Assembly (NCBI RefSeq): GCF_009914755.1
Contig: NC_060933.1
Length of the DNA stretch: 64,000 nucleotides
DNA from: the human T2T-CHM13v2.0 reference genome, Homo sapiens
Direction: 5' to 3' (one strand)
The first letter of the stretch is position 1, and every line of letters starts with the position of its first letter. Of the stretch, positions 1,741 to 64,000 are shown piece by piece. The position numbers and the translations under genes are program-made. A model generated the notes under the pieces. The model ran no database searches and was not told the origin of the DNA. It saw nothing but the letters and a program-made list of their open reading frames with translations.

Positions 1741-2006
1741 AGACTCAGTGCTCCCTCCTCCTCCCGCGCCCCGCGCTCTGCGCGCTGAGCTGGCGCCGGG
1801 CTCCGCTTGCACAGCACCGGGACCGACGGGCACTGCTGGGAGAGCCGCTCTCCCAGGTTCCACCTCCCCGATGCAGAGTCCGTGGGGGAAACCAGGCTTT
1901 CCTCCCAGAACCAAGGGAGCGAGCCGAGGGGGCAGCTGCTGTGGGGGCTTCTGAGGAGACAGCCTGGCTTCTTTCCCTACTTCCTGGAGAGGGCAGGAAA
2001 CCTCAG
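1741..2006 (+). other. TMEM215: TMEM215 non-coding exon 1 (TSS approximate)
   Basis: Donor CAG|GTACCT at 2006/2007; acceptor tttcatctctgacAG at 2326 with branch-like TTAAC at 2298-2302; Inr-like TCAGT near 1745; exact TSS is inferred. Confidence 0.7.
1871..1954 (+). other. uORF1 (27 aa, MQSPWGKPGF...GGF) in TMEM215 exon 1
   Basis: ATG at 1871, TGA at 1952-1954, inside the inferred exon 1; weak Kozak context. Confidence 0.55.
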
Positions 2007-2040
2007 GTACCTCGTTGACCCCAGCCGGAGCGTGTTGATA

Positions 2041-2265
2041 TGAGAGAGAGACGGAGGTTGCAATAGTGAGAGGAAGAGAGGGAGGGCACAAGAAAGGGAG
2101 GGAGGGAGAGGGGACGGAGAGAAAGAGTAGAAATAGAAACAGGGAGAGATTGCAAGAGAAACGCAGAGAGAGAGATAGAGAGATTGCAAGAGAGATACAG
2201 AGACAGAGATCAAGACTGAAAGTCAAGAAGCAAGTCGGAGACAAAGGGCAAGAGAAAGACAAGAG
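2041..2265 (+). repeat. GA-rich polypurine low-complexity tract in intron 1
   Basis: Almost all A/G; gagagattgcaagaga occurs twice. Confidence 0.85.
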
Positions 2266-2372
2266 TTGATGGGTGGGAGCTTGACTTGGATTTTTTTTTA
2301 ACGCACTGTGGTTTCATCTCTGACAGAATAGAGGAACGCTGCTCCCTGGTCAGCAAGCAGCCCCCAACCTGG

Positions 2373-2381
2373 ATGGAGTGA
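2373..2381 (+). other. Minimal uORF2 (ATG GAG TGA), in frame with and 3 nt before the TMEM215 start
   Basis: ggATGGAGTGAaacATGcgg read directly. Confidence 0.7.
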
Positions 2382-2384
2382 AAC

Positions 2385-3092
2385 ATGCGGCCTGATGACA
2401 TTAACCCGAGGACTGGGCTGGTGGTGGCCCTGGTCAGTGTCTTCCTCGTCTTTGGTTTCATGTTCACCGTCTCTGGGATGAAAGGGGAGACTTTGGGAAA
2501 CATCCCCCTCCTGGCCATCGGGCCAGCCATCTGCCTACCAGGCATCGCAGCCATTGCCCTGGCCAGGAAAACCGAGGGATGCACCAAGTGGCCAGAGAAC
2601 GAGCTGCTGTGGGTCCGCAAATTGCCCTGCTTCCGGAAACCCAAAGACAAGGAGGTGGTAGAGCTGCTGAGGACCCCTTCAGACCTAGAATCCGGCAAGG
2701 GGAGCTCAGATGAGCTGGCTAAGAAGGCGGGCCTCAGGGGGAAGCCTCCCCCACAAAGCCAGGGTGAGGTGTCCGTGGCCAGCTCCATCAACAGCCCCAC
2801 ACCCACGGAGGAAGGAGAATGCCAGAGCCTCGTCCAGAATGGGCATCAGGAGGAGACGTCCAGATACCTGGACGGCTACTGCCCCTCGGGCAGTTCCCTC
2901 ACCTACAGTGCCTTGGACGTCAAGTGCTCAGCAAGGGACAGATCTGAGTGCCCTGAGCCTGAGGATAGCATCTTCTTTGTGCCCCAGGACAGTATCATCG
3001 TTTGCTCCTACAAGCAGAACAGCCCGTATGACAGATACTGTTGTTATATCAATCAGATACAAGGCAGGTGGGACCACGAGACCATCGTCTAA
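2385..3092 (+). CDS. TMEM215: Transmembrane protein 215 (235 aa, two N-terminal TM helices, single coding exon)
   Basis: ORF MRPDDINPRTGLVVALVSVFLVFGFMFTVSG...GRWDHETIV recognised as TMEM215; two hydrophobic segments; Kozak A at -3. Confidence 0.97.
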   Translation: MRPDDINPRTGLVVALVSVFLVFGFMFTVSGMKGETLGNIPLLAIGPAICLPGIAAIALARKTEGCTKWPENELLWVRKLPCFRKPKDKEVVELLRTPSDLESGKGSSDELAKKAGLRGKPPPQSQGEVSVASSINSPTPTEEGECQSLVQNGHQEETSRYLDGYCPSGSSLTYSALDVKCSARDRSECPEPEDSIFFVPQDSIIVCSYKQNSPYDRYCCYINQIQGRWDHETIV

Positions 3093-5580
3093 TCTCTGCC
3101 TACAAAGGTGGCTGGATTGATAGAATATGACTAAGCCCAGCTCCCCGTGGAAGCAAATTGCTCTGCTTGGAGAGCCTTCACACTGTTAGAAATTGACCTG
3201 GTATGTGATGGGTGTGATAACCTCTGGTACCCGAGAGTCATGTAAATAGGCATGTTGGGGACACATTTTAGGGAAGGGCGATGAGGGTTAAGGACACTGG
3301 AAGAGGCAGTGGGTAGGAAAGGAAGCTACTCCAGTTGCTTCTTAACAATTTACACAATGTTAAATGTTTTGTAAAATAACCCAAAAAGTGCTATCCAGAA
3401 CCAGCTGAGAGCAAGATAAATCTAGAGTGGGCTGCAGATGTGAGGCATCAAATGATGCATGAGCTGACCACAGGGAAACTGAGCTGCTTTATGTTTGAAT
3501 AAGTTGAAAATAAAATTAATGATCCGTTATATAAAGTAATTTTTGCCTGGTTAAAAGCTTATCACACTTGGTATTTGCTGAAAGAAAAAAAAATCAAGAT
3601 ATAAGAGTTAAACCCTCCTTAGATGGGATGGTTTTTGGGAAAAGGGTAGTTAAAGAGAGTTGGATTATGTAACTGAGTCTTGTGGCATTATTGTCTGACA
3701 AGATCATGGTCTCTAATAAAGTAAAATAAGTGTGAGCAGCTATGTGAAAAGTTAACATTTTTAGATGGCTATGTTACTTCTTAAACTCTTCGTTTAAATC
3801 CATTTATTGCATCTTTATCTGAAATGGGTTTTTTCTAAACATTTACTATCATTCATGTATTATTTCCTTACCAGGTGCAACATTATTTGAAATGATACTT
3901 TCATAGATTGGAATTTGTTTTCATCAAGACAAAATGAATTTTACATATATATCCAAGTCTTTAACATTGGCAGACATGTACTGATAATTACCATTCCTAC
4001 ATACCTTTTAAAATCTGAAAACTATAAAGTCTACACATTAGCCTTGAACATTGCACATAATTTGTATGAAATGCAATGGTTAAACCTTTGCAAGTGTCAT
4101 TATTTGTACATTTGTTCAACTCCTCTCACAGACTGTAAATGCCAGTGAAACAAGAACTCATCTACTAAATTTAACTGAAGCCTAGATTTTATTAAGCTCA
4201 CCTGATCAGTGAACATTACATGATAAAAGTCTCTTTATTTCATACATTTTTGCTGCTGAGGAAAACAACAAATCACAATGATATCCTAAAATGTGCTTTC
4301 TATTTCACTTGCTCAACTGCAATAGATAAGAAGGCTATCAAGCAGAATGCCATTTGATCCCCGGTGAAGAAAAATATGAATTATATATAGGAATGGTGAT
4401 AGAGTTCATCTTGAAGATCAGAAGTATTTTGTATCCTTCAAAGAATGATCATTTTAAGTGATCATATAGTCTTAGTCACTTTCTCCCAAAAGGGGAATTG
4501 AGGACAAAAATTTGGGCATATATGTTTTGTGTATTTCAATTCCAACTCTGCAATTCTTTCTTAAGTATAGCAATTGTTCTGTCTTAAGAATCATGGTATT
4601 TTTAAAAAATCATAATTTTCAAGTCAAGTTCAAGATCAAAAATATGTAATTATTTTAGTAGGGCTTAAATATCAGAAATGAGATGCATGATCTTGGGCAA
4701 ATTTTATCTTCTTACACCTGAGTTTCCTACTCTGTGAAGGGAGGGGGAACTGATTCACACTTGATTATTTCTATCATTCATTTTCAGTTTAAATATTCTA
4801 TGGTGTTATGTCAAAGGCATTTTATATATTGCCAGGAAATGAGTTACAGCAAAATTCATGCCAAAGTTATGAAATTTATGATAATTATGTGACATACATT
4901 GCACAGCTACTACTCAAAAAAGAATTTTGTAGATGTATGAAAGCAGATTATTCAACACAATGCATTCCTGAGAATAAAATGAACATAATCAGAGTAAAAT
5001 ATTTTTGAGGAGAAAACTTAAAATGTTGGTATAACTCAAAGTAATCTAATACACAACCTTGCACTAAATGTGATTGACATTTGGATTTGGGATGGGGAGA
5101 GATAGTTTCCTAAAATCACAGTAACTTTTAATAATTGTAATGCATTTTGAAAACAGAGAATCATATTTTTATAATGGTGAGAACTATGCAATAACTCTTT
5201 AGGAATGAAAACTTCCTTTAAGAAGTTTGCCACCGTTAGAGATGAGGAGATAGTGAGACAGAGAGATGTTCACAGAGACTCAGCAAATCTTAGACAATAA
5301 TGCTGCAATTTTCTGAAAGAAGATGCTTGCAGTGTCAGGTATGGTTTGGGGGTTGGAAAAGTTACTTTTCTGATTTCTTGGAACCATTTAAAACTCCTTT
5401 ATATCATTCTGTCTCTTTCCAAATTGAGGGTCAACTACTAGTTTAGAGATATAAGGTATTTTATCTTGTTTTCAAGTTCTACTTCAGAAGAAAACCTATT
5501 TCATGTTTCTTCTCCCATTACCTACTTAAGATACTTAAGGTATTTAAGTATGCATTTGAGGAAATATTTTCCTGTGCTAA

Positions 5581-5586
5581 AATAAA
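5581..5586 (+). terminator. TMEM215: Poly(A) signal (proximal candidate)
   Basis: AATAAA followed about 15-30 nt later by GU-rich tgttggtgtg. Confidence 0.55.
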
Positions 5587-7378
5587 GGTTTGCAAATGTT
5601 GGTGTGAGAGGTTTTAACTTTGACCAGTGAGAATAAAATGTATGATTGTGTGTGTGAATTTCTCCTAACATATTAACCAACTCCTTTCTATATGCAACAA
5701 GGTAACCTGGTGCCCCAAATCAATACTTGTAAGTACTATTCAGAGTTAAACTTCCAAAGTCAAAAAATATATATACACAAAAAAAGGGGAAAAGCCACAT
5801 TTTTTTGAACAGAGGTAGAAGAGAAAGAGAAAAAAAGTGTCTCAGCCCTTTAGAGGAAAAGAGAGCAACTCATTCTGATGAGTTACACAGTTTTAGCAAA
5901 TTGTTCTTATCAATATAATAGATATGAGGATTGTTCCTGGTAGCCTTCAAGAGCTCCTAGACAGATATAAATTTAAGTAGACATTACTTTATTTTGCTGT
6001 TAATCCAAGTAGACATTGCGACTTGATTCTGAATAGGCATTTTATTTTCAAAATTTTTCTACTGAATTTCTCTTGCTCTGTATGCCTACTTATTGTGCAC
6101 ATGGGTTGTTTTTCCAAACTGCTTCTTGATTCTTAAGTGAGAATTCAGACATGATACTCAAACGAGAGCATATTAGACATCTGTTTTAAGATTTATTTTC
6201 TGTTGCAGTCATCTTGGCAAACAAAATCCAGATACAGTTAAGTTCAGGCTCTCTTCCAAACCCTGCTAAGCAGCTGCTTTGAAAATGTTTTCAATACTAT
6301 GGATCTTAATATCCACTGAGATGACAAATGTAGGAAAGGAAGATTCATTCTGTTAAATGTTTTTTCTCTTTTGCAATGTCCAAGCTCTACTTATTTATTA
6401 ATAGCCTCCCTCTGTACCCATAACATCATTTATTTGGTGAATTCACTGTTATTAATACTAGTATTTTATCACAGTAAAGAAAAGGTTTCTGAAAACCCAC
6501 AACCTCACTATCCTAAAGCAACTACTGTGTTTCTATTTTGGTATATCATCTTCCAGGCTTCCTCCACATGCAAATGCAGCATACATATTATAATAGTGTG
6601 TTTTTCTTTTCTCTTTGAATTATATTCCATGCATGTTTCCATGTTTCTATGTAGTATTTCTAATTATCAATGAACGATTGTGTAATATGCCATTTTAGTG
6701 ATGTTCCATAATTTATCATGCCATTCCTTATTGCTGGCAAGATACTAAGTTTTATGGATGATTTTGTATGTTTTTTTCCTATTGCTGGTTACACTGCTAT
6801 ATTATTTGTTATATGCCAATAGAGAGGAACTTTACTATTGAACAGGTATCTCCTTGTGGATGAGAGAGAGGAGGCAGAATTGTGTAAATGAATGGAACTC
6901 TCCATATTGTTGTGTGGGTCTTCCCTTCACTCTTGTGGATATAAGACCCAGGGTGGGAAACAAAACGATGCTTCTTCCAAAAGATCCTCCCATCAGGACC
7001 AGAACTAGTATGTTTAGGAGTAAGATGGAACATTTCCCCAGCTAAGATACCAGTGGTGTGTTTCTCACAATTAGATTACAGTGGTGTCAGTCTTCAAGAG
7101 CATCGTGTTCAACAAGCAAAATGATAAATAGATGTAAACAATAATAATGACTTTGTAATATGCCAAAAGCATTTTCTTAAAGTACCTCATCATATATTTT
7201 ATAATAGATGTATTTCATATGTATATGTATTGTCGCCTATCAGTGACTTACAAATGAACTGGAATTTCAGGAATCTGATAGACTCTGCCCTTGAGTTTTC
7301 TGTGTTTCAGTTTCCTACTGGGAAAAACTAAACTGAGGATGGAAATGGGGACAAATGCTTGGTTTGCCCAAATATCTT

Positions 7379-7384
7379 AATAAA
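7379..7384 (+). terminator. TMEM215: Poly(A) signal (distal candidate)
   Basis: AATAAA with CA about 16 nt downstream; near the end of the repeat-free UTR-like zone. Confidence 0.5.
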
Positions 7385-7969
7385 AGACTAGATTCCATTC
7401 AACCTCTTGTCCAGTTCACATAAAATCATGTAGACACCACTGAGTCTGAGACCATGACTTTGATTTCTCATGACCTACCGCAGGGTCCTCACTCTATGGG
7501 CACCCAACCAAAAGAAATGTGTACATGATGCTGCCCAGATACACAAACAGGCAGGCACTGATGTTAGATAGCCAGTCTTTGGCAAGTTGTTCCTGGGACT
7601 GACCCTTACTAGGGATTCTTTTTTTATTTTTCCCTTTATTCCTTCCCTGACCCCAGATTACAGCCTGCAGACTTGGTATTCTCGGTGATAGTACAAAGCT
7701 TTGCATGCTTTATCCCTAATAAGGTACAGAGTTACAAAATGAACCGATTACAAAACAGTACATAAAGCTATTAAAAATCTCCTGTGCTGCTCTTTGACAA
7801 ATCTATCTTTAGAAAGTTGAACATAAAAGATAATTTTGCAATTAGTCACTTTCTTATTTTTCATGGTAATGAACTATTGTACATAAGACAACTCTTCAGT
7901 AGGAGGCCAGACCACATTTGTTTGAAAAAACTAGGCTTTTGAAAATCACCTGCCTGTATCTGAACATGA

Positions 7970-35317: not shown

Positions 35318-35479
35318 TTAAGGTGACCTACAGAGCAGTTGGTTGTTAATCACTCCAGGAATTAAATTAAAAGAGCTTCTCTCTGGTTCTGTAACGGGGA
35401 CAGCAGTGCCAAAGAACTCTTTGCGGGATGCAGTAAACTTCTTTCCTTCCAGCCAATAGGTGACCATTTCCCTTTTTCC
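35318..35479 (-). pseudogene. GC pseudo-exon F (terminal): GKREMVTYWLEGKK...LLCRSP*
   Basis: Matches the GKGxMxTYWL motif; pyrimidine tract ttttcctccc but acceptor reads TG instead of AG; TAA at 35320-35318. Confidence 0.9.
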
Positions 35480-37368: not shown

Positions 37369-37460
37369 CTTGACTTGTAAATTCCTAAGACATACCAGTA
37401 TGTAGTCTCCAATTTGCTCCAAGATTTGATATGCACTTGAACTACACTGGATTTTCAGAG
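37369..37460 (-). pseudogene. GC pseudo-exon E (92 nt): (A)LKIQCSSSAYQILEQIGDYILVCLRNLQVK
   Basis: tttcctcttctgtcctccAG acceptor, AAG|GTATAT donor, open frame, same length as the homologous receptor-GC exon. Confidence 0.92.
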
Positions 37461-42636: not shown

Positions 42637-43255
42637 CTTAGCTGGTTACCTCCATTCGGAGGCTGTGTTCACAGTGCAACAGTGAGAGAAATATAACATA
42701 GCTGATTTCATCTTGCTTCTAGCCTCAAAAGTTGACTGCCTTTATTTGTTCCTGCCTGTAAGCCACGCTAAGTGTAGGAGGAATTCAGTTTAACATTAAA
42801 GCAAGGATGATAATAGTCCCTTCCCAAAACTAAGCCCCAAAGAGATGAGGAGAGCATACACACAAGTAACAATATTATGTTAAAGATTTATAGGAGCACT
42901 GTGACCTGACCAAGGACAAAGATGTTTTGCAACCCCCTCAGACTCCGGCTGACACCCAGATATCTGTGGTCACCTGCAATATCCTGACCACAACCCCCTT
43001 CTTGTTCCCCCTTTCCCAATATAAAAAGAAGCCTGAGATTCATGCCTTTAAGATGGTTCTTTAGGACACTAGTCTGCCATCTTCTTGGTTTGCTGCCTCT
43101 CCAAAATAAAGTCGCCTTTCTCACCCGAACACCTTGTCTCTTGACTTACTGGCTGTCATGAGGCAAACAGTATAAGCTTTGGATTTGGCCACAACTGCAT
43201 CTCCAAGTAGACAACATCAAGGCATTTTGGTTCCAACAACTCCAGTAACACTGGC
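42637..43255 (-). pseudogene. GC pseudo-exon D split by an LTR: (GPV)VTGVVGTKMP*CCLLGDA|VNTAS(R)MEVTS*
   Basis: Halves 43194-43255 and 42637-42674; acceptor tttttctcactgactAG, donor G|GTGAGA; TGA, TAA and three inferred 1-nt deletions. Confidence 0.93.
42675..43193 (+). mobile_element. ERV1 solo LTR (LTR8/LTR51-like) inserted in GC exon D
   Basis: TGCAACAGTGAGAGAAATATAACATAGCTGA...CA; TATAAAA and AATAAA present; 4-bp TSD ACAG/ACTG. Confidence 0.8.
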
Positions 43256-54314: not shown

Positions 54315-54825
54315 CAGAGTGGGCTTTATACATCCTATCAGAGTGGGCTCTTTACACATCCTATCAGAGTAGGCTCTTTACACATCCTATCAGAGTGGGC
54401 TCTTTACACATCCTATCAGAGTGAGCTCTTTACACATCCTATCAGAGTGGGCTCTTCATACCTCCTATCAGAGTGGGCTCTTTATACATCCTATCAGAGT
54501 GGGCTTTACACATCCTATCAGAGTGGGCTTTACACATCCTATCAGAGTGGGCTCTTTACACATCCTATGTGAATGGGCTCTTTATACATCCTATCAGAGT
54601 GAGCTCTTTACACATCCTATCAGAGTGGGCTCTTTACACATCCTATCAGAGTAGCTCTTTATACATCCTATCAGAGTGGGCTCTTTACACATCCTATCAG
54701 AGTAGCTATTTACACATCCTATCAGAGTGGGCTCTTTACACATCCTTTCAGAGTGGGCTCTTTACCCATCCTATCAGAGTAGCTCTTTATACATCCTATC
54801 AGAGTGGGCTCTTTACACATCCTAT
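54315..54825. repeat. Minisatellite, 20 copies of a 24-26 bp unit CAGAGTGGGCTCTTTACACATCCTAT
   Basis: Units counted by hand (14 x 26, 3 x 25, 3 x 24 = 511 bp). Confidence 0.97.
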
Positions 54826-54835
54826 CTTGTCTTAC

Positions 54836-54988
54836 CCGAGTGGATCCCAGCACATATTTTCGGGTGGACATTGGACTTATGTGGAATCTCAAAAGTTTTC
54901 TGCACAGGTACTAGGTCCAGGGCCATGTTTGCTATTTCCCTAGCATGGAGGATCCCTTTGGCCTTGTGCACCCTAGATGCCACCATAT
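54836..54988 (-). pseudogene. GC pseudo-exon C (153 nt): (Y)MVASRVHKAKGILHAREIANMALDLVPVQKTFEIPHKSNVHPKICAGIHS(G)
   Basis: Matches HAxEIANMALDL...GIHSG; donor G|GTAAGA intact; acceptor reads ttttcAA instead of AG. Confidence 0.94.
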
Positions 54989-57052
54989 TTGAAAATACAT
55001 GAAAAAATGGCACACTTGAATGAACTAAAGCAGACTGTAATTTTTTTAAGGCTGCTGGCAAGGGTTTTCTATCCAAAACCTTTACCTGTACCTTCCCTTG
55101 CAGCTTGGAAAGTTTATTTAGGGCAGAGGGTTTGAAAAACATTTCAAGGAATGGGTCTTTGAGAGCAAAAGTCACTACAAGGTTGGGTGCTCTGGACATG
55201 AACTGATCCAATAAATGTTTCCGGTCCATGAAGTAAACAGACTGACTCTTGACAACTATTAGTCAGTGCTTCTTCCTTCTTATGTTCAAGCAGCATTGAT
55301 TTCCTTGTCTTTCTGACATAGCCTTGTTCTTAATACTCAGTCTCAAGACAAACAAGAGAAACAGTTTGGGAGCAGCCAGCCATGTTTGAGTCAATTTCTT
55401 ATAGTTCTTTCATACTGAGAATAGGAACTCTGGGTCAAAGCTATTGAGGGCCACAAGAAATAATGAAATGATGTCCTGAAAGTTAATTATTTGACTTCCA
55501 TGAGACGATTTAGTGCAATGAGAGAAGTACTTATGAAATAGCAGTCCAATAGCATGCAAGAGTCAAAGGGCTTCCAGGGATATGGAAAATTCATAAAGAT
55601 CGAGTCCTGGGCTCAATGCTCCAAGCTATGGACAAAATGGATTTCCTAGCTCAAAGCTGAATGATGTGTCTTGAAAAAGCTGGCCTTCTTTAGAGATGCA
55701 TGACAAAAATCTTAGAAACTTGAAACTGTAATTTGTAAGAGGTTCTCCAGAGTGGTATACAGAGAGTTAGAGGTTTCTGCAAGAGATGAGACTAGAAAGA
55801 GCAGAAAAGGTTAATAGAGCAGTATCAGCAGGATCAGAACACTGCTGAATCATAGTGTGTATTGGTACAATAAAGAATAAGAACTTAGATACTTAGACAC
55901 TAACCTTGAACGTATGAATGATGGAATAGCTGATTGGGAGTTTAATTGAAATTCTGATGCTGAATAATATCTTCAACCTTTTCTGACACTGTTGCTTAAA
56001 TGAGTGGGTAGACACTCCCTGTTCAGCACACCCCACCTATTTCTGCCTGGATGCTGAAGGTGCTGCTTCCAGACACCATTCAGCAGACACACATGTATGT
56101 GCACACACACAAACACACATACACGGTTGTCATGACAACTGAGGCATGGACATTGAGGCCATGTCTGAATGGAGCCAGTCATTCAGACACCTTGGTAAAG
56201 GTGTTCTGTTTTGGGGGTGAGGGAACTTGTTTGTCTACCCAGCAGTAGCAAAAACCCATCTTTCTACCCTGCAGACAGTGGTCCTTCCTAACTAAGTGCT
56301 CAATCCTGGGATCTCGGGATACTAAAACAAGGCATCATTATTTCTCAAAAGAGCTCTCTGGATGAGATTTACCCAACTTTTATAGGGTCTAACCCACAAG
56401 GGGTCACAGTAAAAATAACTGCCAAGCCAGTCTCACTCAGTGCATTGGTTCCAGGGAAACATTTTTTGACCTCTTGGGGACCACTTATGTTAACCCACCA
56501 CTTGTTGTTTTCATTTGCAAACATTCTGAAGGTCAATTTGAATTTGATTGTTTTAGGATCTAATAATTCACTTAGTGACATATCTAAATTAAAGCCCAAA
56601 TCATCAGAAAGAATAAGATACACCCAACAAAGATGCCTAATTTACAATCATGAAGAAACAGTTCAGTTCATGTCAAGAGATTTATCGAATGCCTTAGACA
56701 CAAGGAAAATTATCATCAATAATAAGCATTTTCTAAGCAATTACTTTGGGTGGACACATAGGCTCAGAGAGATATAAGGCTCAGGGAAGTCTATGAATAC
56801 CAGCCACATTGCAAAGCCACACAAGGCATACACCAACTAGTTAGAAAAGTGGGTGATTAGAAAAGCTTTGGGCAAAGTTTCTAGGGGTAAGTAAGACTTA
56901 AGCTGAGCCTCATGGAATGCAAAGTGCTTCTGCATTTTAGAAGTAAAGGGAGAAATATTACAGGTGAAAAAAAAACTGCATGGTATGGGACCGTTTGAGT
57001 ATTACCTTGTTTGGCAGGAGATGTCCTGCAGAAGAGCAATGGGAAATAAGGC

Positions 57053-57755
57053 TGTGTAGTAAACAATTAACCTTACCCAAAAAGAAGTCTGGCTTTTACC
57101 CTAAGGTACTGGGAGTTGGTTCCTAGGCCCCTAGAATGCCCTGCCTGAGTCTTTGTTGCTGGGGAGCTTTGGCTACTAACAGCCTACCAATGTGATTTGT
57201 GATTGTGGCCTTAGGGCCACGCAGTGTCATTTATGACCTCTGGAGGAACAACTAAAGATATTAGCTTGATCTCCAGTCTCCAGAAGTGGCTGGAAACTCA
57301 AGGTCAGCCACTCAGGCAGGATGTGATCAGGCCCCAGTAAATCTCTGAACACCAAAGGCTGAGGTGATCTTTCATGGTTGACAACACTTTGTGTGTCTCG
57401 TTGCACATGGTGACCAGGAGGAAGCAGTGTTGTCCATGACCCGATAGGGAGAAAATGACTGGCAGCTGGCACTAGACCCCGCCTGGATTCTGCCCCATGT
57501 GTCTCCTCTCTAAGCTGAATTTAATTTGTATCCTTTTACTGTAATAAAACTACAATAAGAAGTATAGCACTTCCTTGAGTTCTGTGAGTCATTCTAGTAA
57601 ATTATTGAACTTGAGGGTGGTTGTGGGAGTCCCCAGATTTGTAGCCAGCTGGTCTGAAATAAGGATGAGCCTGCGCATTACCAAATTTGCAGCTCATGTC
57701 AGAAGTGAGGGAAGTCATGTGAGGACTGTGCCCCCAAACTGTAGAGTTGTCTTAA
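57053..57755 (+). mobile_element. MER21/MER77-type ERVL LTR
   Basis: tttactgtaataaaac...gagttctgtgagtcattctagtaaattattgaacttgagggtggttgtggg. Confidence 0.75.
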
Positions 57756-57979
57756 CTCATCGCAAAGGCTGAAGAAGTTAGTCATGTGGGGCATTGAATG
57801 TAAGCCTGGAGAGTCTGGATATGATGCCATAGGCAGTTATATTCTTGAGCAAGAGAACAAGACAAGCTTCATCTCATAATAGTGTAAGAGACAGGATGCT
57901 TAGAGGACTGTGTTTTGTCCAGATGTGGGAAGATGAAGATCTGAACCAGCCCTGAGGCAGAAAAGGAAAAGCTGTGTGA

Positions 57980-58200
57980 ATAATAACACTGACTGAGCAT
58001 ATGCTATGCCAGGCATCCTAAGCGCTCCATGTGCTTTTAATCCTCAAAACAATCTTATATGGCAGGCGACATTCTCCTCTCCATTTTACAGACCAAAAAA
58101 CTGAAGCCCAGAGAGACTAACTAATTTGCCCAAAATCATCCAGCAGGAAGTGGCACAGCTGAGATTTGAACCCAGCTGGAATCAGACTCATAACCATTAT
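57980..58200 (-). mobile_element. MIR
   Basis: ccattttacagaccaaaaaactgaagcccagagagactaactaatttgccca. Confidence 0.7.
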
Positions 58201-58549
58201 CTCACATAAGCGCTACCACATGGAAGACACCGTGGTAAAAGAATCAACAGGATTTGCTGACTGGCCGTCTGGATACAAGATGAAAAAGCCAGGAAGAGGA
58301 CAGGACAACTCTAGGGTTTTCCATATTGATAAATAGAAATTGCAGATGTTCCTATAGCCCAAATTGCCTATTTCACCTTGAGCAAAAAGGACATGAGCTA
58401 AGGAGATCTAAGTCATGGGCGGTTCAAATTTGCCAACTAACAAAGGGAACCTAGCTAAGTCTTTTAACTTTCCTGGGCCTAAGGTTCCTCTTCAGTTGGA
58501 GTAAATCTCTAAATTCCCTACTGACCACAAGAAGCAAAGTAGTAAGTGA

Positions 58550-58790
58550 TCAGTAGCATGTGCTCTTAAATCAGACAGGTCTAAGACCTGACTCTGCATT
58601 TATAAGCTACGTGACCTTGGACAAGTAACTGAGTCTTGGCATTCCCATCTGGGAAATGGGGATTATAATAATATCTGGGTTATAGAAATGTTGTGAAGAT
58701 ATATACCATAATCAAATAATCTATGTCAAGCCCTTAGCACAATGCCTGACATATGACTAAGTATTTGATACATGACGGTTTTATTGTTAG
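58550..58790 (+). mobile_element. MIR
   Basis: agctacgtgaccttggacaagtaac...catctgggaaatggggattataata...cttagcacaatgcctgacata. Confidence 0.7.
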
Positions 58791-60496
58791 TTTTCATGCA
58801 ATGAGATATCATAGAACTTAGCCCCAAAACCACCATTCCAGATAATTCCACTGGCCAAACTCAGAGGTGAATAATTAATTTTTTAATCATTATTAATAAA
58901 GACATGAGAAAACCTTACCATGTTTTAACTACCCTTGATGCAAGTATACAGTTATGTTATTCTACTGTGTGAGTCATTATTGTCCAGTGCTGTGATGATA
59001 CACACCATAAGCATAAAAGTTCACACGATGCATGATAAAATTGTTCAACAATAAAACAGACAACATTAAAGGACGAAGATTCAGCATCACTTCAGATTTC
59101 GACCAAAACACAAGTTAATCAGCACATCCCTAAAGTATAACAAAGCAGAAAGTTAGTTACAATCAAGTCCTAAATGCCTAAGTACTTAATATATTTTTCA
59201 TCAACTCCAAGCAAAATTTACTTCAAATTTAGCCAAAAGATTATTTCAATTTTCTTTTTTTTTTTTTTTTCCTTCAGCGGTGGCCATCAGAGATAGTGTT
59301 ATGACCCTCACCTACATTTCTGTATAATGAGCTTACCTTTGGAGAATAAAGGGAAATCCTTTAAATCTGAGGGTTATTGAAAATCAAAATCCCTGCTTAC
59401 TATGTAGTTAGTGCCCTGTATTTACCCATTAATTGTTAGATATATTAAAAGTTATTATCTTTGCTGGAGCAGGTTTGGGTCTAAACACCCATTCAATGGT
59501 TCTGAATTAGAGGCAAGGGGAAGAAAAGCCCAGAGATAATAGTAAAATTCAAAGTAAATGTGGTTTAATTACATTGTCATGTATGATAGCAACTTTAATT
59601 TCATGATGCAGTGTTTTATGGTAATGAAAAGAAACACAAGGAATTGTAGGAACACAATAGTTTCATCAACATTAACCTCATAATGCAGTATTTTTCAGTA
59701 ATGAATGGAAAGAAAAGGAACTGTGTGGGTTGCAGTGACTCACCGCAGCAACCTTCATGAGCAGCAGGTGGAGTAATGAAGGTGATGGGAGAACCATCGT
59801 CTCCTCTTCAACATGGCTATTGGTCTCAGTCCTTCTATGTGTTACTAGACTGCACCCTGAAGGTAGAGATCCATCTATCACATTCAGCCTTCTGCCCTTT
59901 AGAGCTCCAGTGCTAACACAGTGCCTGGCACATACAGGTTTCTCAATTACTGTGCATTGAAAAAATGAATCTTAAATACTTTCTAAATCTATTTTCAGTT
60001 TGCCTGATGGCTAACAAAACATTTCATTGTTCCCTTCTCAATTTATACAATTAAAAATGAAATTACAGTCGGTAATGATTATTGATATTATAATTTTATC
60101 TAAATATTTGTTCTGTGTGTCTTTCAAAATTCACCGCCTTTCCTCACTGGCCATGAGGAAAGGAAAATACCTATGTCAGTAAAAGGTTGGAGATCATTGA
60201 GCTAAGTGCCGGAAAGTCTGACCACAAAAGTAAAAATATAAAACCAGTTTGTTTCCCTTATTATTGAAAAGGATGGCTCTCAAATCAAAGCAGTAGACAT
60301 TTCCTCGGGGACAACAATGAGAAAAGCCATAGGCACAATTGAGACTACTAAGAAGATTTGCTTTCTAGGAGCTTACAACTTAAGAAAGTTCGAATGTTTA
60401 CATAAATGGTTACTTTCCATTAATTCCAAGCTTTGTCTCCACTAAAAATTAATATTATTCCATGTCTAAAATACCCACCCATACATCAATAGTCAC

Positions 60497-60636
60497 AAGC
60501 ATTTCCCATCGTCTCCATGTTGTAGACATCATAATGGTCTATAATTTTTCCCAAAGGTGGTATAGAGCTTGTCCAGGAAGTCCACTACCTGATACAGTGT
60601 GCTGATGTAGAAAGTCGAGGGAAGCCTACTATGTCA
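60497..60636 (-). pseudogene. GC pseudo-exon B (140 nt): (S)DIVGFPRLST/STLYQVVDFLDKLYTTFGK/IIDHYDVYNMETMGNA(Y)
   Basis: Matches SDIVGFT...QVV..LN.LY..FD.IID.YDVYKVETIGDAY; acceptor ttctacctccctgctccattccAG, donor T|GTGACT; one deletion and one insertion frameshift. Confidence 0.95.
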
Positions 60637-61115
60637 CTGGAATGGAGCAGGGAGGTAGAAAAAAAGTAAAATCAGGCAAAATAATTGGCAAGACCTAATT
60701 AAGCAATGGTACTTCCTTGTTTGGCACAATTTTTTAAAGCTCTCAGAAATCTGAGCCAGGGAGACCAGAAAGTCATGAGTCAGTCAATGGGTTTAGAAAA
60801 TATCCTTAGTTGTTTGTAACTTGTTTGGTTGGGATTTTGTTTGGGTTTGCTTTTGGTGTTTGGGTGTTGGTTTTGTTTGGGTTTTGCTTAGCTTCATTTT
60901 AGACAGTGCTGGCGTATTCCAAGCTAGGGAAGCTGGGTGCATGAGAGCTCTATCCGCTAACATCTGGACTCCCTCTGTTTCTGTTGATCAAGTGAGTGGG
61001 TTTATATAACAAGAGATTTACATGGATTGAGACAGCTGTGCAAACTCATTTAAAGAAGTCCCAGGTCGAGGTTAATTTGCTTCCCAGTTATCCTGATTCC
61101 TACCTACATTCTAGT

Positions 61116-61389
61116 TTTGTTTGTTTGTTTTTGTTTGTTTTGTTTTTTTGAGACAGTATCTCTCTCTGTCATCCCGGCTACAGTGCAGTGGCTCAACTGT
61201 AGCTCACCGTGACCTTGAACTCCTGGGCTCAAGTGATCTTCCCACCTCAGCCTCTTGAGTAGATAGGACTACAGGCACTTGCCACCCTTGGCCATCTAAT
61301 GTTTTGTATTTTTTGTAGAGACAGGTTCTCTCTGTTTCTCTGGCTGGTATTAAACTCCTAGTTTCAAGTGATCCTCCCACCACAGCCTT
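61116..61389 (-). mobile_element. AluJ (5' end missing)
   Basis: Reverse Alu with (GTTT)n tail. Confidence 0.85.
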
Positions 61390-62169
61390 CTAGATCTTTT
61401 ATTTTTTGGTTGTTAGTGATGCTTTCATATCTTCAGATAGATTTCTCTGAGGTTATACTAGCCTCTGCTGGAGAGAGGTCTTTTGTCTTTTTCCTCCCAG
61501 GAAGGAGTCTCTATCAGTGACATGGCATGGCTTTAAACTCTAAAGAGCCGGTCTTTAAGCTCTATGCCTCAGTTTATCCATCTGTAAAACATGGACGCTC
61601 TCTTGACCCCCAGTTAGAATCTGACTGCTTTGAGTAACTGCTGTAAACTGCAAATCATTTGCAAGGCTTCCACCTCACAGCTTACAACTTCAATTTATGG
61701 GTTTTTCTCAGAAATTTCTAAACTTTCCCCCAGGCAAGGCAACCCTGGTTCTGCCTCATCACAGATGGGGTCATTGTATGTTTTGTTATGGCAGGGAAGA
61801 ACTATATGGCTTATTTACTTCAGATTAAAAAAAAAATTCCCTGAAATGAAGTATAAGCATTCTAAAGCAATTTCCTGCTGTTTTTGCTAAGCTGCATGCC
61901 TTTTAGCTCTAAGAAATTGATTTAAGTTAAAAAAAAAATAAGGTGGTGGGGTGGAGGGACTTAACCAAATCACACCAACGTATTTTATTAACAACATGCC
62001 TAAGTGGTAAGCTTGCTGCCACTTGATTCAAATGCCTGCAGTTTCTTCTTTTGCAGATATTATTTACTCTCCACCTGCTGCCAGTCACGCACAAATTGTA
62101 TAACACTGTAGACTGCTCCAACTCTCTGCCTTTTAAGCTGAAATCCCAATGCCAGTCATGTTAATTTAC

Positions 62170-62255
62170 CTGAAAAGATGGACACACTCAGGTATCTCTG
62201 AGCCAGGCAGGTTGGCCTTGTCTTAGGTCATCAACAACTTGTTTCAGTAGCGTGC
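62170..62255 (-). pseudogene. GC pseudo-exon A (86 nt): (S)TLLKQVVDDLRQGQPA/AQRYLSVSIF/(S)
   Basis: Matches the helical-domain/cyclase start MLP..VA..L..G....A..Y..VTIFFS; donor CAG|GTAAAT; weak acceptor; two inferred 1-nt deletions. Confidence 0.88.
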
Positions 62256-64000
62256 CTATTTTTAGGTATGAATCCGAACAGTTAATTACCCTTAAGGAAA
62301 AGGACACACGGGGGCCCACTGTCATGCCTGCAGCATCATTTTTTACATTGGCACTCTCGATTGTTCTGTCCTCCATACACAGTAAGTAGGGTATGGTTTG
62401 CATGCTGTTTGCTGGGCCACAGTGGATTTGTACCAAGTCAAGTGTATTCCCTAACCCAGTCTTCCCCGGGGCCACTGTTGAGATGGGGTCAGGGGTGCTG
62501 CTAGGAGTGGAGAGAGAGGAGAGTCAATTGGAGGAATGGAAGCTCTGCCTGCAACCTCATTAGGATCAACCTTTACTCATCTAGCACTTTGGTCATTGAG
62601 ATTGACGCCTCCCCTAACTTAAAATACTTATTATGGGAACCAGGACCTCAGGGTGCGTTAAGCAGGCCCAGCTTCCACCCTGCAGTGATTTGCAATTTCC
62701 TTGTTGGGAGCGGTGGCAGCATTGTTAGTTCAGAGAGCTGGGCTTTGCCCTTTTGGGAGGTTGTGGGGCTTTTTGCTCCCAAGAGGTGGCTATTACCTTC
62801 CTCATGGGCAGTTTTTTTCTAAACAGGAAGCGGTGGATGAACAATTTTACCATGTCCTCCTCTAGTCTTGGGGATTAAAAATCTTAAGTTATTTGAATCG
62901 TTAGGCTGTCGGAAGAAAAAAATCAACTAAGATCGCCATTCTGTCTACAGGGTGAAAACAAACAGAGTGATTTACTGGGCACATTTAGCACTCATTTCCC
63001 TTGCAGGAAGCTTGGGATCCCCTGGAGGGATAAAGGATGAATATTTATTGGAGCCTAATAATGGTGGAAAAACCTGATTTTGTATTTTTTTTTCTGTGAA
63101 AGAAATAGGGTGATTTTATATATTTCCCTTAGGAATTTCTGTCTCAATAGCGTTTTTGCTATACGTATTCATAATCTACCCTGGTAATATTGTCTGCTAA
63201 ATACTTATAAATGCAGCATGATCTGGCTATATTGCTTCATCATTAATTGAGGAATATAAAATGCAGTCAGGCCTCCAATCAGTGTTTACAGAGCACCTAC
63301 CATGTCCCAAGCACTGGACTAGGCACTGAGGGATGTAAAAATGAACAAAATTTAGTTATGCCACACAAGAATTATATAATCCTGCTAGATAAACAGAAAT
63401 GTGTACAGTTAATCACATACGTATACTACTTGAATATAAAAGTCAGGCTTGCCATGGCCAGGAGAAGGTTTAAAGGGTTACACAGGAAGTATTGACATGT
63501 TTCTACCCAAAGGGGGGATATCTTTTATTTCATATAGATTTAGAAAGTTATTCATCTCACCAAAAGGAAGAGATTAACTCATCCAGTCTACAGAATAGGA
63601 CTGGCAAAGACCCCAAAGGCTTATGAAAATGAATAACTTGGATTAGCTTGGTTCTTCATTTTTGAGCTGCCTTTGAGAATATGGATGAAAACACGGGTCC
63701 TCTCCTGGAAAAATGCACATATATACCCAGTCTTGCATGTAATTTCAGGGATACATGGGCCACTTGAAACTTCAACATGGACTGTCTAGAGCACCACCAA
63801 ATTAGATAAGCAGACAAAAGAGCCAACAATGACATTCTAGTAAACATCAATATTTAGAAGTAAAAAGGCATTTAGAGGAAGTCAAACAGAGAAGAGCCAT
63901 TGAAAGAAACTATGGCATTGTCAGAATTGAGTTGCACTGTGGGGGCTATTCATCCAGGGCAGCTCTCTGGGTCATCAGGCATCACCAGTTGGTAAAATAT

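What the first reader, a model, noticed from the sequence alone, without database searches (positions are those of the whole stretch)
54836..62255. Intron layout marks a GC subfamily distinct from GC-A to GC-G
Seen: introns fall inside the Ser codon of FS|DIVGF (phase 2) and inside the Tyr codon of GDA-Y (phase 1). There is none after ..Q|VV or DVYK|VET. Recalled knowledge: NPR1/NPR2/GUCY2D-type genes have introns at Q|VV and YK|VE, and share the three downstream positions seen here (153+22=175-nt, ~99-nt and 92-nt units). Signature residues (KQV.DDLRQG, STxYQVVDFL, GTKMP, LKIQCSS) also differ from NPR1/2. From memory they resemble orphan 'ANP receptor-like' cyclases predicted in birds and fish. 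Inference: an ancient separate branch of the family, not a recent duplicate.
Basis: partly seen in the sequence, partly recalled or inferred. Interest (0 to 1): 0.8.

Follow-up and report, generated by a model that had tools for sequence, protein, structure and literature searches.

The report
Dead eighth human guanylyl cyclase gene
A long-dead gene on human chromosome 9 is the remnant of an eighth, very old type of receptor guanylyl cyclase that molluscs, fish, birds, platypus and opossum still keep intact but placental mammals appear to have lost.

Summary
On the minus strand, three cyclase-domain exons (62255-62170, 60636-60497, 54988-54836) are split inside the Ser codon of FS|DIVGF (phase 2) and the Tyr codon of GDA|Y (phase 1). 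Exon b reads straight through Q-VV and YK-VE. The exons belong to a roughly 99-kb unitary pseudogene (window 35318 to 134567) with at least 13 premature stops, several frameshifts and lost catalytic residues. It is the human orthologue of proteins annotated only as 'ANP receptor 1/2-like', found from molluscs and echinoderms to platypus and opossum, with no eutherian among the listed hits. Two trees on separate domains place it inside that family, apart from GC-A to GC-G. AU tests reject the alternatives. The family has no ANF-type ectodomain; it carries a Cys/His-rich domain with no Pfam match. The GDA|Y intron is conserved across the family. Ligand and ectodomain fold remain unknown.

The parts
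62256..64000 (-). Start of the intron upstream of exon a, which runs out of the window. The gene continues beyond 64000. The upstream exons, given in window-equivalent coordinates on the minus strand, are:
- coiled coil, 70689-70595
- kinase-homology exons, 71087-70969, 72880-72764, 76060-76007, 80375-80229, 81947-81825, 83472-83329 and 87905-87759
- a weak possible exon, 91688-91526
- juxtamembrane piece, 99219-99175
- Cys-rich module plus transmembrane helix, 102420-102276
- ectodomain exons, 105722-105597, 116832-116719 and 134567-134430 (chr9:32932430-32932567)
   Evidence: Searches cover 70.6k-102.4k. The best exon, 83472-83329, has E=4.6e-18, is 71% identical to platypus, and hits Pfam PK_Tyr_Ser-Thr at E=6.5e-7. 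Searches cover the three ectodomain exons, which carry 1, 3 and 2 in-frame stops and have lost invariant residues. The 91.6k piece is only 18.9 and 18.5 bits.
62170..62255 (-). Cyclase exon a: (S)TLLKQVVDDLRQGQPA..AQRYLSVSIF(S). 86 nt against 88 expected.
   Evidence: acceptor aaaatag|GC and donor CAG|gtaaat. Two 1-nt deletions. The Ser codon is split AG|T.
60497..60636 (-). Cyclase exon b: (S)DIVGFPRLSTS / STLYQVVDFLDKLYTTFGK / IIDHYDVYNMETMGNA(Y). 140 nt, the expected length.
   Evidence: acceptor ccag|T and donor T|gtgact. Two compensating frameshifts. No intron at Q-VV or YK-VE. The metal-binding Asp of IGDAY is now Asn.
54836..54988 (-). Cyclase exon c: (Y)MVASRVHKAKGILHAREIANMALDLVPVQKTFEIPHKSNVHPKICAGIHS(G). 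153 nt, open frame.
   Evidence: acceptor decayed to caa|AT, donor G|gtaaga (phase 1). PF00211 E=0.0081, below the Pfam cut-off. 63% identical to platypus.
43150..43255 (-). Cyclase exon d: ASVTGVVGTKMP*CCLLGDAVVAKSK.. 106 nt against 99 expected.
   Evidence: TGA in place of the Arg of KMPRY. The catalytic Asn is now Val and the Arg is now Lys. Indels are present.
37369..37460 (-). Cyclase exon e: (x)LKIQCSSSAYQILEQIGDYILVCLRNLQVK. 92 nt, open frame.
   Evidence: 26 of 31 identical to platypus. Acceptor ccag|CT and donor AAG|gtatat (phase 0).
35318..35479 (-). Last coding exon GKREMVTYWLEGKKF...NLIPGVINNQLLCRSP plus the stop codon.
   Evidence: 53 codons and then a stop at 35320-35318, the same length as in platypus and opossum. 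The acceptor now reads tg.

Best explanation
The three exons of the finding are part of a unitary (unprocessed, vertically inherited) pseudogene. It spans about 99 kb on the minus strand of human chr9p21 (window 35318 to at least 134567) and lies tail to tail with TMEM215.

It is the dead human orthologue of an eighth lineage of receptor guanylyl cyclases, separate from GC-A to GC-G. Intact members have a signal peptide, an ectodomain of about 210 residues that is rich in Cys and His and has no known family, one transmembrane helix, a kinase-homology domain, a coiled coil and a class III cyclase domain. The Glu and Cys that specify GTP are retained. By analogy with the other receptor GCs, these proteins most likely act as homodimers that make cGMP when the ectodomain senses an as yet unknown ligand; that step is inferred, not shown.

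The lineage is at least as old as bilaterians and is highly conserved. It has its own exon layout and shares only three intracellular junctions exactly with the classical receptor GC genes. In the line leading to humans the gene was inactivated, probably early in eutherian evolution, and has since drifted. The human locus most likely encodes nothing.
For: Anatomy. Twenty collinear minus-strand pieces match the platypus protein P0083 in order, from ectodomain to stop codon. All 5 donors of exons a-e are GT, and 4 of 6 acceptors are AG with pyrimidine tracts. The introns are retained (1.5 to 11.6 kb), so it is not a processed copy.

Decay. There are at least 13 in-frame stops in 8 exons, and frame changes inside at least 6 exons. 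In the cyclase domain the Asp of IGDAY is now Asn, the Asn of TVNTASR is now Val, its Arg is now Lys, and the Arg of KMPRY is now a stop. Invariant ectodomain residues are lost.

Identity. The relic is 57-71% identical to 17 of 17 family rows and 39-47% identical to 9 of 9 human GC genes.

Trees. Cyclase tree: relic in the vertebrate clade at 99/99, family at 92/88, classical seven at 91/80. Kinase-homology tree on other columns: family against classical at 100/99, and relic with platypus and opossum at 99/99, with the gene tree following the species tree. AU tests reject the rival placements.

Family. Members are named only 'atrial natriuretic peptide receptor 1/2-like'. They occur in scallop, abalone, echinoderms, a hemichordate, amphioxus, sharks, teleosts, amphibians, reptiles, birds, platypus and opossum (best 120 of 1848 hits; taxonomy).

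Loss. With the opossum query, the mammals among the best 120 of 566 hits are 3 marsupials and platypus, with 0 eutherians, although the list runs down to 68% identity.

Single locus. All 3 of 3 ectodomain matches in the human genome lie at this locus.

Intron layout. Of 55 library hits to exon c, 50 carry the MVVSG motif. In 23 it is preceded by unspliced sequence ending in D (the reading of ag|AT), 19 begin at the M, 7 are spliced (GDAY), and the human copy has N from aa|AT. D-type pieces match duck, wrasse and turbot proteins at 100% and lizard and cichlid proteins at 98%.

Annotation. The hub's RefSeq table lists no gene between 7402 and 144635.
Against: I could read no genomic DNA of an intact orthologue. 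Synteny (TMEM215 as neighbour) and the FS|D junction in other species are therefore not shown directly. The only hints are two gene models, P0031 and P0046, that break at that point.

The absence of eutherians rests on one list of the best 120 annotated proteins of 465-1483 residues. It does not exclude an intact but unannotated or fragmentary copy in some eutherian.

The classical families are represented by human genes only. Their sequences were assembled from genomic matches, with small errors at some junctions. Several branches are long (GUCY2GP, GUCY2C, both soluble subunits, the relic).

One proposed exon (91526-91688) is a weak match.

The function of the intact family is entirely inferred.
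Confidence: 0.93

Rival explanations
1. The locus is a decayed duplicate of a classical receptor GC. The obvious candidates are NPR2, which lies 3 Mb away on the same chromosome arm, and GC-G/GUCY2G. On this view its odd features are products of decay.
For: NPR2 is at chr9:35.8 Mb. The single kinase-homology exon first found matched NPR1 and NPR2 best among human genes, at 42% and 39%. Databases name the family 'ANP receptor-like'.
Against: AU tests reject clades with NPR1/2 (p=0.0003), with the GUCY2 genes (p=0.0005) and with GUCY2GP (p=0.029). Identity to every human GC gene is 39-47%, against 57-71% to the family. The exon layout differs at about 10 of 13 intracellular junctions, and the same GDA|Y junction is seen in intact genes of birds, lizards and fish. 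The ectodomain is unrelated to that of NPR1.
Confidence: 0.02
2. The gene is a real relic of this family, but the loss is recent or patchy (for example primate- or boreoeutherian-specific). Some placental mammals would then still have a working copy.
For: Only annotated proteins of near-full length were surveyed. One unnamed library fragment, P0004, keeps an open exon c with SGVP intact. It shares 5 derived residues with the human copy, so at least one other related lineage retains recognisable sequence.
Against: There are 0 eutherians among the best 120 hits, although three marsupials and platypus are present and the list extends to teleosts at 68% identity. The human copy differs from intact amniote proteins at about 30-40% of residues. 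By my rough, recalled neutral-rate reasoning, that fits roughly 100 million years of drift. P0004 itself has 6 unique changes at positions conserved in 11 intact rows, which suggests that it is decaying too.
Confidence: 0.2
3. The locus is still functional in humans, either as a protein made through unusual splicing or recoding, or as a regulated non-coding RNA or enhancer derived from the old gene.
For: Exons c, e, the second kinase-homology exon and the last exon keep open frames. The original stop position is preserved. Most splice signals survive.
Against: There are at least 13 stops and several frameshifts across the other exons, catalytic residues are lost, and two acceptors have decayed. 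RefSeq lists no gene model here (hub table). No Rfam family matches in 33000-64000. I had no expression data, so a non-coding role could not be tested.
Confidence: 0.03

Closest known systems
GUCY2EP (GC-D) and GUCY2GP (GC-G), the two recognised human receptor-GC pseudogenes
   Same: Both are unprocessed pseudogenes of receptor guanylyl cyclases that are functional in other mammals, with stops and indels in retained exons. They are described as human pseudogenes in PMC1435932 (passage read). I saw their decay.
   Different: Those two belong to the classical seven classes, have the classical exon layout (YK|VE, 175-nt exon) and are intact in many placental mammals. The chr9 relic belongs to a different lineage, has a different layout, is unannotated in the RefSeq table supplied, and has no eutherian counterpart among the listed hits.
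NPR1/NPR2 (GC-A, GC-B)
   Same: The intracellular architecture is the same: kinase-homology domain, coiled coil and class III cyclase. Full-length NPR1 is the closest solved structure to the platypus family member (E=1.6e-148 over residues 300-858). Three junctions are shared exactly: IH(S/T)G in phase 1, one codon before LKI in phase 1, and K|GKG in phase 0.
   Different: There is no ANF_receptor ectodomain. The family lacks the Q|VV, YK|VE, GSLQ|D and K|GM introns and has its own at FS|D, GDA|Y and elsewhere. Platypus is 63% identical to NPR1 over the coiled coil plus cyclase region, but 80% identical to starfish. The trees and AU tests separate them.
Predicted 'atrial natriuretic peptide receptor 1/2-like' proteins of non-eutherian animals, such as platypus P0083, opossum P0161 and medaka 'membrane guanylyl cyclase' P0075
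   Same: This is the family the relic belongs to. It shares the signature residues (LPKQVADDLRQGKP, STPYQVVDFLNKLYTTFD, VVGTKMPRYCLFGD, ALKIQCSS..LQVKGKG), the ectodomain, the GDA|Y junction and the C-terminal length.
   Different: Those genes are intact and strongly conserved, while the human copy is dead. Their database names are misleading, because they lack the natriuretic-peptide-binding domain. From memory only, the medaka member may be the 'OlGC8' orphan cyclase described in Zoological Science in 2003. A search for 'OlGC8' found 0 occurrences in the held library, so this is unverified.
Insect eclosion-hormone receptor guanylyl cyclase and the 'EH-type' receptor clade reported in echinoderms
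   Same: It is a receptor GC clade with echinoderm members and no human member. Zandawala et al. state that EH-like receptors are 'absent in vertebrates' (10.1101/129783 and PMC5627052, passages read). The EH ligand is reported widely in non-vertebrate animals (PMC6660194, passage).
   Different: The link is not tested. I had no arthropod EH-receptor sequence. The paper on that receptor is not held, and the readable supplements of PMC5627052 contain no receptor data; the PDF and AI supplements could not be read. This family is present in vertebrates, and no arthropod appeared among the 120 listed hits.

Membership tests
Receptor (membrane) guanylyl cyclases in general | Class III cyclase catalytic domain | tested here: met
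   Intact family members hit PF00211 at E=6.7e-64 to 1.8e-67. Relic exons a-e and the last exon align collinearly to it. Relic exon c alone gives PF00211 E=0.0081, below the cut-off.
Receptor (membrane) guanylyl cyclases in general | Kinase-homology domain and coiled-coil linker upstream of the cyclase, and one transmembrane helix | tested here: met
   PK_Tyr_Ser-Thr and HNOBA are found in the family members. A relic kinase-homology exon gives PF07714 E=6.5e-7. The coiled-coil exon and the transmembrane exon are present in the relic.
Receptor (membrane) guanylyl cyclases in general | GTP-specifying Glu (VETIGD) and Cys (RYCLFGD). This is established knowledge for RetGC-1; the Tucker et al. reference was seen in the reference list of PMC1435932. 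| tested here: met
   Both residues are conserved in all family rows printed, and both are still present in the relic (METMGNA, P*CCLLGD).
Natriuretic peptide receptor class (GC-A/GC-B), the name the databases give | ANF_receptor (periplasmic-binding-protein-like) ligand-binding ectodomain | tested here: not met
   No ANF_receptor hit in any of the 6 long proteins scanned; P0038 and P0030 carry the whole ectodomain and P0023 its N-terminal part, the other three do not. There are 0 Pfam families at E<=10 for the platypus ectodomain. hhalign against the NPR1 exon-1 region gives probability 0.07%. The NPR1 structure matches only residues 300-858.
Natriuretic peptide receptor class (GC-A/GC-B) | Gene structure with introns at Q|VV, YK|VE, GSLQ|D and K|GM | tested here: not met
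   The relic reads through all four positions. NPR1 and NPR2 have all four.
Natriuretic peptide receptor class (GC-A/GC-B) | Phylogenetic placement with NPR1/NPR2 | tested here: not met
   AU test p=0.0003 against. Trees.
GC-C, the sensory GCs (GC-D/E/F) and GC-G | Phylogenetic placement, and the YK|VE junction with its 175-nt exon | tested here: not met
   AU test p=0.0005 for the group and p=0.029 for GC-G alone. All of these genes have YK|VE and the 175-nt (or 174-nt) exon; the relic has a 153-nt exon instead.
The 'ANP receptor 1/2-like' short-ectodomain family (eighth lineage) | Signature residues in the cyclase domain, and placement inside the family in trees | tested here: met
   57-71% identity; 99/99; 99/99 with platypus and opossum.
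The 'ANP receptor 1/2-like' short-ectodomain family (eighth lineage) | Cys/His-rich ectodomain (WHDLxN..CWP; NCCxHHxNxHSCP; CGPWxP..G.IFTH; S.IAH; CG.G.C...E.C..CP.DC..C) | tested here: met
   Three decayed ectodomain exons and the Cys-rich/transmembrane exon lie upstream at the locus, in collinear order. The motifs come from alignment A1.
The 'ANP receptor 1/2-like' short-ectodomain family (eighth lineage) | Phase-1 intron inside the Tyr codon of GDA|Y | tested here: met
   Relic: T|gtgact ... caa|AT. Other species: 23 of 23 unspliced exon pieces with upstream sequence read D before MVVSG, and some match duck, lizard and teleost proteins at 98-100%. Two divergent unnamed pieces (P0049, P0052) also have it, so it may not be exclusive to this family.
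The 'ANP receptor 1/2-like' short-ectodomain family (eighth lineage) | Phase-2 intron inside the Ser codon of FS|DIVGF in intact members | tested here: inconclusive
   It is clear in the relic. For other species there are only two suggestive gene models: P0031 starts with intron-like sequence directly before DIEGF, and P0046 breaks after ..VYF. No orthologue DNA was available.
Functional human gene | Uninterrupted reading frame and intact catalytic residues | tested here: not met
   At least 13 stops in 8 exons, frameshifts in at least 6 exons, and Asp to Asn, Asn to Val and Arg to Lys changes.
Processed (retrotransposed) pseudogene | Absence of introns | tested here: not met
   About 20 exons are spread over about 99 kb with GT/AG borders.
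Eclosion-hormone-type receptor GC clade | Grouping with arthropod EH receptors in a tree, or a shared ectodomain | not tested

The most novel reading that the evidence does not exclude
Receptor guanylyl cyclases have an eighth class that is as old as bilaterians and among the most conserved. Its ectodomain is a previously undescribed Cys/His-rich sensor domain with four invariant histidines and six likely disulfides, which might bind a metal or some other non-peptide or unknown peptide ligand. Every vertebrate group except placental mammals keeps the gene under strong constraint. On this reading, placental mammals discarded a whole cGMP signalling axis early in their history, and the human chr9p21 relic is its fossil. 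A bolder but weaker extension is that this is the vertebrate branch of an invertebrate neuropeptide-receptor clade (EH-type) that has been reported as absent from vertebrates.
Probability: 0.4. Interest if true: 0.75.

Novelty: new member of a known kind. Interest (0 to 1): 0.62.

Why it matters
The texts I read count seven membrane guanylyl cyclases in mammals, two of them pseudogenes in humans (PMC1435932, passage; PMC10061024, abstract). This locus adds an eighth human receptor-GC gene, dead and absent from the RefSeq table supplied for this window.

It also draws attention to a family that is hidden under a misleading database name. The proteins are called 'ANP receptor-like' but lack the natriuretic-peptide-binding domain.

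The family is strikingly conserved: over the coiled coil and cyclase region, platypus is 80% identical to starfish and 71% to scallop. It survives in monotremes and marsupials but has no listed eutherian member. That makes it a clean case of a deeply conserved signalling receptor lost on the way to placental mammals, and it raises two questions: what the ligand is, and what replaced it.

The finding also shows that exon layout alone flagged a separate gene lineage correctly from raw sequence.

For genome annotation, the relic gives a coordinate set for a roughly 99-kb unitary pseudogene, and a reason it was missed: its cyclase exons did not appear among the 74 matches of a genome-wide PF00211 scan.

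Tried and rejected
1. Word-indexed protein search with exon c alone found only the window's own ORF. The query was too short and decayed.

2. Six-frame comparison of paralogue ORFs against the window was swamped by Alu-derived ORFs. It became usable only after filtering and with per-exon profiles.

3. I first read the second half of exon a as ..SEIPECVHLFS. That was the wrong frame, and alignment to platypus corrected it to AQRYLSVSIF.

4. I first took K|GM to be a junction shared with NPR1. This was wrong: the relic's exon extends upstream through ..LDVA*GM...

5. I first counted the junction near platypus position 395 as shared. Inspection showed it is 5 nt away and in a different phase.

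6. Earlier findings of this scan were not open.

7. Literature: all ten searches found no description of this family, of 'OlGC8', or of a human chr9 GC relic. One further search call failed on a term that was too long. PMC2726410 (the EH receptor paper) is not held. PMC6878697 does not mention the family. The two readable supplements of PMC5627052 hold nothing on receptors; its PDF and AI supplements, which may list the receptor sequences used, could not be read.

8. The protein atlas gave no usable hit for the starfish or platypus ectodomain.

9. Sequence searches with the ectodomain: the only solved-structure hit is a Rieske protein at E=0.42, which I treat as chance. Pfam gives 0 families at E<=10. 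NCBIfam gives one hit at E=0.54.

I located the 5' exons through whole-genome searches instead and fetched three pieces of 191-301 nt.

12. Rfam over 33000-64000 found nothing. Pfam on 8 other long ORFs in and near the finding found nothing above cut-off.

13. The link to eclosion-hormone receptors could not be tested.

14. I considered dating the inactivation from substitution rates but had no orthologue DNA. Only a rough estimate from recalled rates is offered.

The upstream exons are now listed in the text of one in-window part.

Full report
**What is at the coordinates.** The cyclase-like reading frames between 54836 and 62255 lie on the minus strand. Base-level inspection gives three exons.

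- Exon a is 62255-62170 (86 nt). Its acceptor is aaaatag|GC and its donor CAG|gtaaat.
- Exon b is 60636-60497 (140 nt). Its acceptor is ccattccag|T and its donor GCT T|gtgact.
- Exon c is 54988-54836 (153 nt). Its acceptor now reads caa|AT and its donor is TCG G|gtaaga.

The finding's two coordinates are exactly the first base of exon a and the last base of exon c. The Ser codon of F-S-DIVGF is split AG|T (phase 2) and the Tyr codon of GDA-Y is split T|AT (phase 1). Exon b runs without a break through ..YQVVDFL.. and ..YDVYNMETMGNA.

**The recalled comparison, tested on the human genome itself.** The assembly holding the window could be searched. I fetched NPR1, NPR2, GUCY2C, GUCY2D, GUCY2F, the pseudogenes GUCY2GP and GUCY2EP, and the soluble subunits GUCY1A1 and GUCY1B1.

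- All 9 have a phase-0 junction at YK|VE, with AG directly before VETIGDAY.
- None of the 9 is split in FSDIVGF.
- The phase-1 junction in the Gly of IH(S/T)G is present in the 7 receptor genes, but both soluble subunits read through it. The relic shares it.
- The VETIGDAY..H(S/T)G exon is 175 nt in 6 of 7 receptor genes and 174 nt in GUCY2GP. A 99-nt solution for the following exon exists in 6 of 7.
- The relic's exon e is 92 nt. I checked the equivalent NPR2 unit only.

**The rest of the gene.** Per-exon profiles built from the paralogues, and then intact relatives used as queries, show that these three exons are a small part of a long minus-strand gene.

- Downstream lie exon d (43255-43150), exon e (37460-37369) and the last exon (35479-35318). 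The last exon ends with a stop after 53 codons, the same length as in platypus and opossum.
- Upstream, outside the window, lie the coiled-coil exon (70689-70595), seven kinase-homology exons (87905 to 70969), a juxtamembrane piece (99219-99175), and the Cys-rich/transmembrane exon (102420-102276).
- Whole-genome searches found three ectodomain exons at 105597-105722, 116719-116832 and 134430-134567.

The locus spans about 99 kb. The RefSeq table supplied with the finding lists no gene between 7402 and 144635.

**It is dead.** Against platypus, 659 aligned positions are 58% identical. I count at least 13 in-frame stops in 8 exons, and frame changes inside at least 6 exons: the transmembrane exon, the 91.6k piece, the last kinase-homology exon, the coiled-coil exon, exon a with two 1-nt deletions, and exon b with two compensating shifts.

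In the cyclase domain, the metal-binding Asp of IGDAY is now Asn, the Asn and Arg of TVNTASR are now Val and Lys, and the Arg of KMPRY is now TGA. The roles of these residues are established knowledge for class III cyclases, not something tested here. Invariant ectodomain residues are also lost. All 5 donors of exons a-e are still GT, and 4 of 6 acceptors are still AG. Because the introns are retained, this is an unprocessed pseudogene.

**What family it belongs to.** A search of the whole representative library with the open exon c gave 55 hits, many at 60-70% identity over all 50 residues. The human paralogues reach only 38-44%. The long hits carry the relic's signature residues almost word for word.

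A named search shows that these proteins are annotated only as 'atrial natriuretic peptide receptor 1/2-like'. They occur in scallop, abalone, sea stars, brittle star, sea cucumbers, urchins, a crinoid, a hemichordate, amphioxus, sharks, teleosts (the medaka member is named 'membrane guanylyl cyclase'), amphibians, reptiles, birds, platypus and opossum. That list is the best 120 of 1848 hits (taxonomy checks).

Pfam finds kinase-homology, HNOBA and cyclase domains but no ANF_receptor domain. The ectodomain of about 210 residues has:

- 0 Pfam families at E<=10;
- no solved relative by sequence, the only hit being a Rieske protein at E=0.42;
- no relation to the NPR1 ligand-binding region, with hhalign probability 0.07%.

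The closest solved structure, full-length NPR1, matches only residues 300-858. The ectodomain is nonetheless well conserved, at 42-52% identity between platypus and the invertebrates. It has 12 invariant Cys and 4 invariant His, in motifs such as NCCxHHxNxHSCP, CGPWxP..G.IFTH and S.IAH, and a membrane-proximal CG.G.C...E.C..CP.DC..C module.

**Phylogeny.** I assembled the coiled-coil plus cyclase region of the nine human genes and of the relic from genomic matches anchored on the platypus protein. These were aligned with 17 family members.

In the maximum-likelihood tree (27 rows, 197 columns, rooted on the soluble subunits), the relic lies in the vertebrate clade of the family (99/99) beside platypus, opossum, crocodile and quail. 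The family is one side of a branch (92/88), and the seven classical human receptor genes group together (91/80). AU tests reject relic+NPR1/2 (p=0.0003), relic+GUCY2C/D/F/EP/GP (p=0.0005) and relic+GUCY2GP (p=0.029).

A second tree on the kinase-homology domain alone (21 rows, 246 columns, none shared with the first tree) separates the family from NPR1/NPR2/GUCY2D at 100/99. It follows the species tree within the family and joins the relic with platypus and opossum at 99/99. Plain identities agree: 57-71% to 17 of 17 family rows and 39-47% to 9 of 9 human genes.

Three caveats apply. The classical classes are represented by human genes only. The assembled rows have small errors at some junctions. 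Several branches are long.

**The exon layout as a family character.** Of the 55 library hits, 50 carry the MVVSG motif:

- 23 have unspliced upstream sequence ending in D, which is what ag|AT gives when read in frame;
- 19 begin at the M;
- 7 are spliced models with GDAY;
- the human copy has N, from its decayed aa|AT.

D-type pieces match the proteins of duck, a wrasse and turbot at 100% and those of a lizard and a cichlid at 98%. The GDA|Y junction is therefore conserved in birds, squamates and teleosts. Two divergent unnamed pieces also have it while lacking the IHSG junction, so it may be older or wider than this family.

Across the intracellular region the relic has about 13 junctions. 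A fourth, near platypus position 395, is 5 nt away and in another phase. The others differ: WGFR|FSF instead of K|GM, a break near KIS|DFG, three further junctions in the second half of the kinase-homology domain, MMPL|MEKY, LLC(S)| instead of LP+2 nt, FS|D, and GDA|Y instead of YK|VE.

YK|VE is shared by the soluble and the classical receptor genes, so it is probably ancestral. In that case this family lost it and has a different junction 22 nt downstream. That last step is inference.

**When it died.** With the opossum protein as query, the mammals among the best 120 of 566 hits are opossum, koala, Gracilinanus and platypus. There are 0 eutherians, although the list extends to teleosts at 68% identity.

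All 3 of 3 ectodomain matches in the human genome are at this locus, so there is no second copy. One unnamed library fragment (P0004) shares 5 substitutions with the human exon c that none of 11 intact rows has, and it carries 6 unique changes of its own. It looks like a second decaying copy from a related lineage.

Together these points suggest inactivation early in eutherian evolution. The timing is not proven, because I could survey only annotated proteins.

**How it works.** The human locus most likely does nothing: no frame, no catalytic residues, no annotated transcript. Rfam finds nothing in 33000-64000, and the other long ORFs in the region have no family.

For the intact family, the architecture and the retained GTP-specifying Glu and Cys support a single-pass, probably homodimeric receptor that makes cGMP when its ectodomain is engaged. 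The ligand is unknown. The invariant His and Cys pattern allows a disulfide-rich domain with a metal site, but that is speculation.

A link to the eclosion-hormone receptor clade is possible but untested. Zandawala et al. report that clade in echinoderms and as absent from vertebrates (passages read).

**Is it known?** The texts I read count seven membrane GCs in mammals, with GC-D and GC-G as human pseudogenes (PMC1435932, passage; PMC10061024, abstract). The two Gesemann and Neuhauss papers deal with the sensory GCs only (abstracts and outlines). Ten full-text searches found no description of this family or of a chr9 relic.

From memory only, a medaka orphan cyclase called 'OlGC8' (Zoological Science, 2003) may be a member, and its paper may already describe an unusual exon layout. 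The held library has no occurrence of that name.

I therefore rate the human relic as a new member of a known kind (receptor GC pseudogenes). It belongs to a lineage that exists in databases under a misleading name and is at best sparsely described.

**Verdict.** Three things need adding or correcting:

- the Q|VV recall holds only for NPR1 and NPR2;
- the locus is a roughly 99-kb dead gene, of which the finding covers three exons;
- the lineage is defined as much by its non-ANF ectodomain as by its introns.

Noticed in passing
window 54315-54826: A minisatellite of 20 copies of a 26-nt unit (90% matches). It starts only about 10 nt downstream of the exon c donor, inside the 11.6-kb intron c-d. 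On the plus strand it creates long repetitive ORFs.
   Followed up: partly
window about 61114-61400: An Alu-like insertion inside the 1.5-kb intron between exons a and b. It is seen in the sequence and matched by an Alu-derived ORF cluster.
   Followed up: no
whole genome scan: A genome-wide six-frame scan with PF00211 returned 74 matches, covering all known adenylyl and guanylyl cyclase genes, but none at this locus. The relic's cyclase exons are too decayed for the general model, which may explain why it is unannotated.
   Followed up: partly
library protein P0004 (58 aa, unnamed): An exon-c-sized ORF with an intact SGVP motif. It shares 5 derived residues with the human relic (A9, K10, R16, E33, C45) and has 6 unique changes. 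It is probably the same gene decaying in a related lineage.
   Followed up: partly
library proteins P0049, P0052, P0045, P0047, P0055 (unnamed): Divergent exon pieces in which the exon c and exon d equivalents are fused, so there is no junction at IHSG. Two of them still show D before MVVSG. The IHSG junction is therefore not universal, and the GDA|Y junction may extend beyond this family.
   Followed up: no
library protein P0005 (1250 aa, unnamed): A highly repetitive protein scored E=6.8e-12 against exon c through five repeated stretches, at only 27% identity. It looks like a repeat-driven false match and was left out of all counts that needed the MVVSG motif.
   Followed up: no
L041 (GUCY2GP, chr10): The VETIGDAY..HxG exon of the GC-G pseudogene is 174 nt instead of 175, so it carries a 1-nt deletion.
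   Followed up: no
window 35318-35320: The relic's last exon still ends with a stop at exactly the ancestral position, 53 codons as in platypus and opossum, despite heavy decay elsewhere.
   Followed up: yes
window 1741-7402 (TMEM215, plus strand) and the relic's 3' end at 35318: The relic lies tail to tail with TMEM215, about 28 kb away. This gives a simple synteny test for orthologues in other vertebrates. I could not run it.
   Followed up: no
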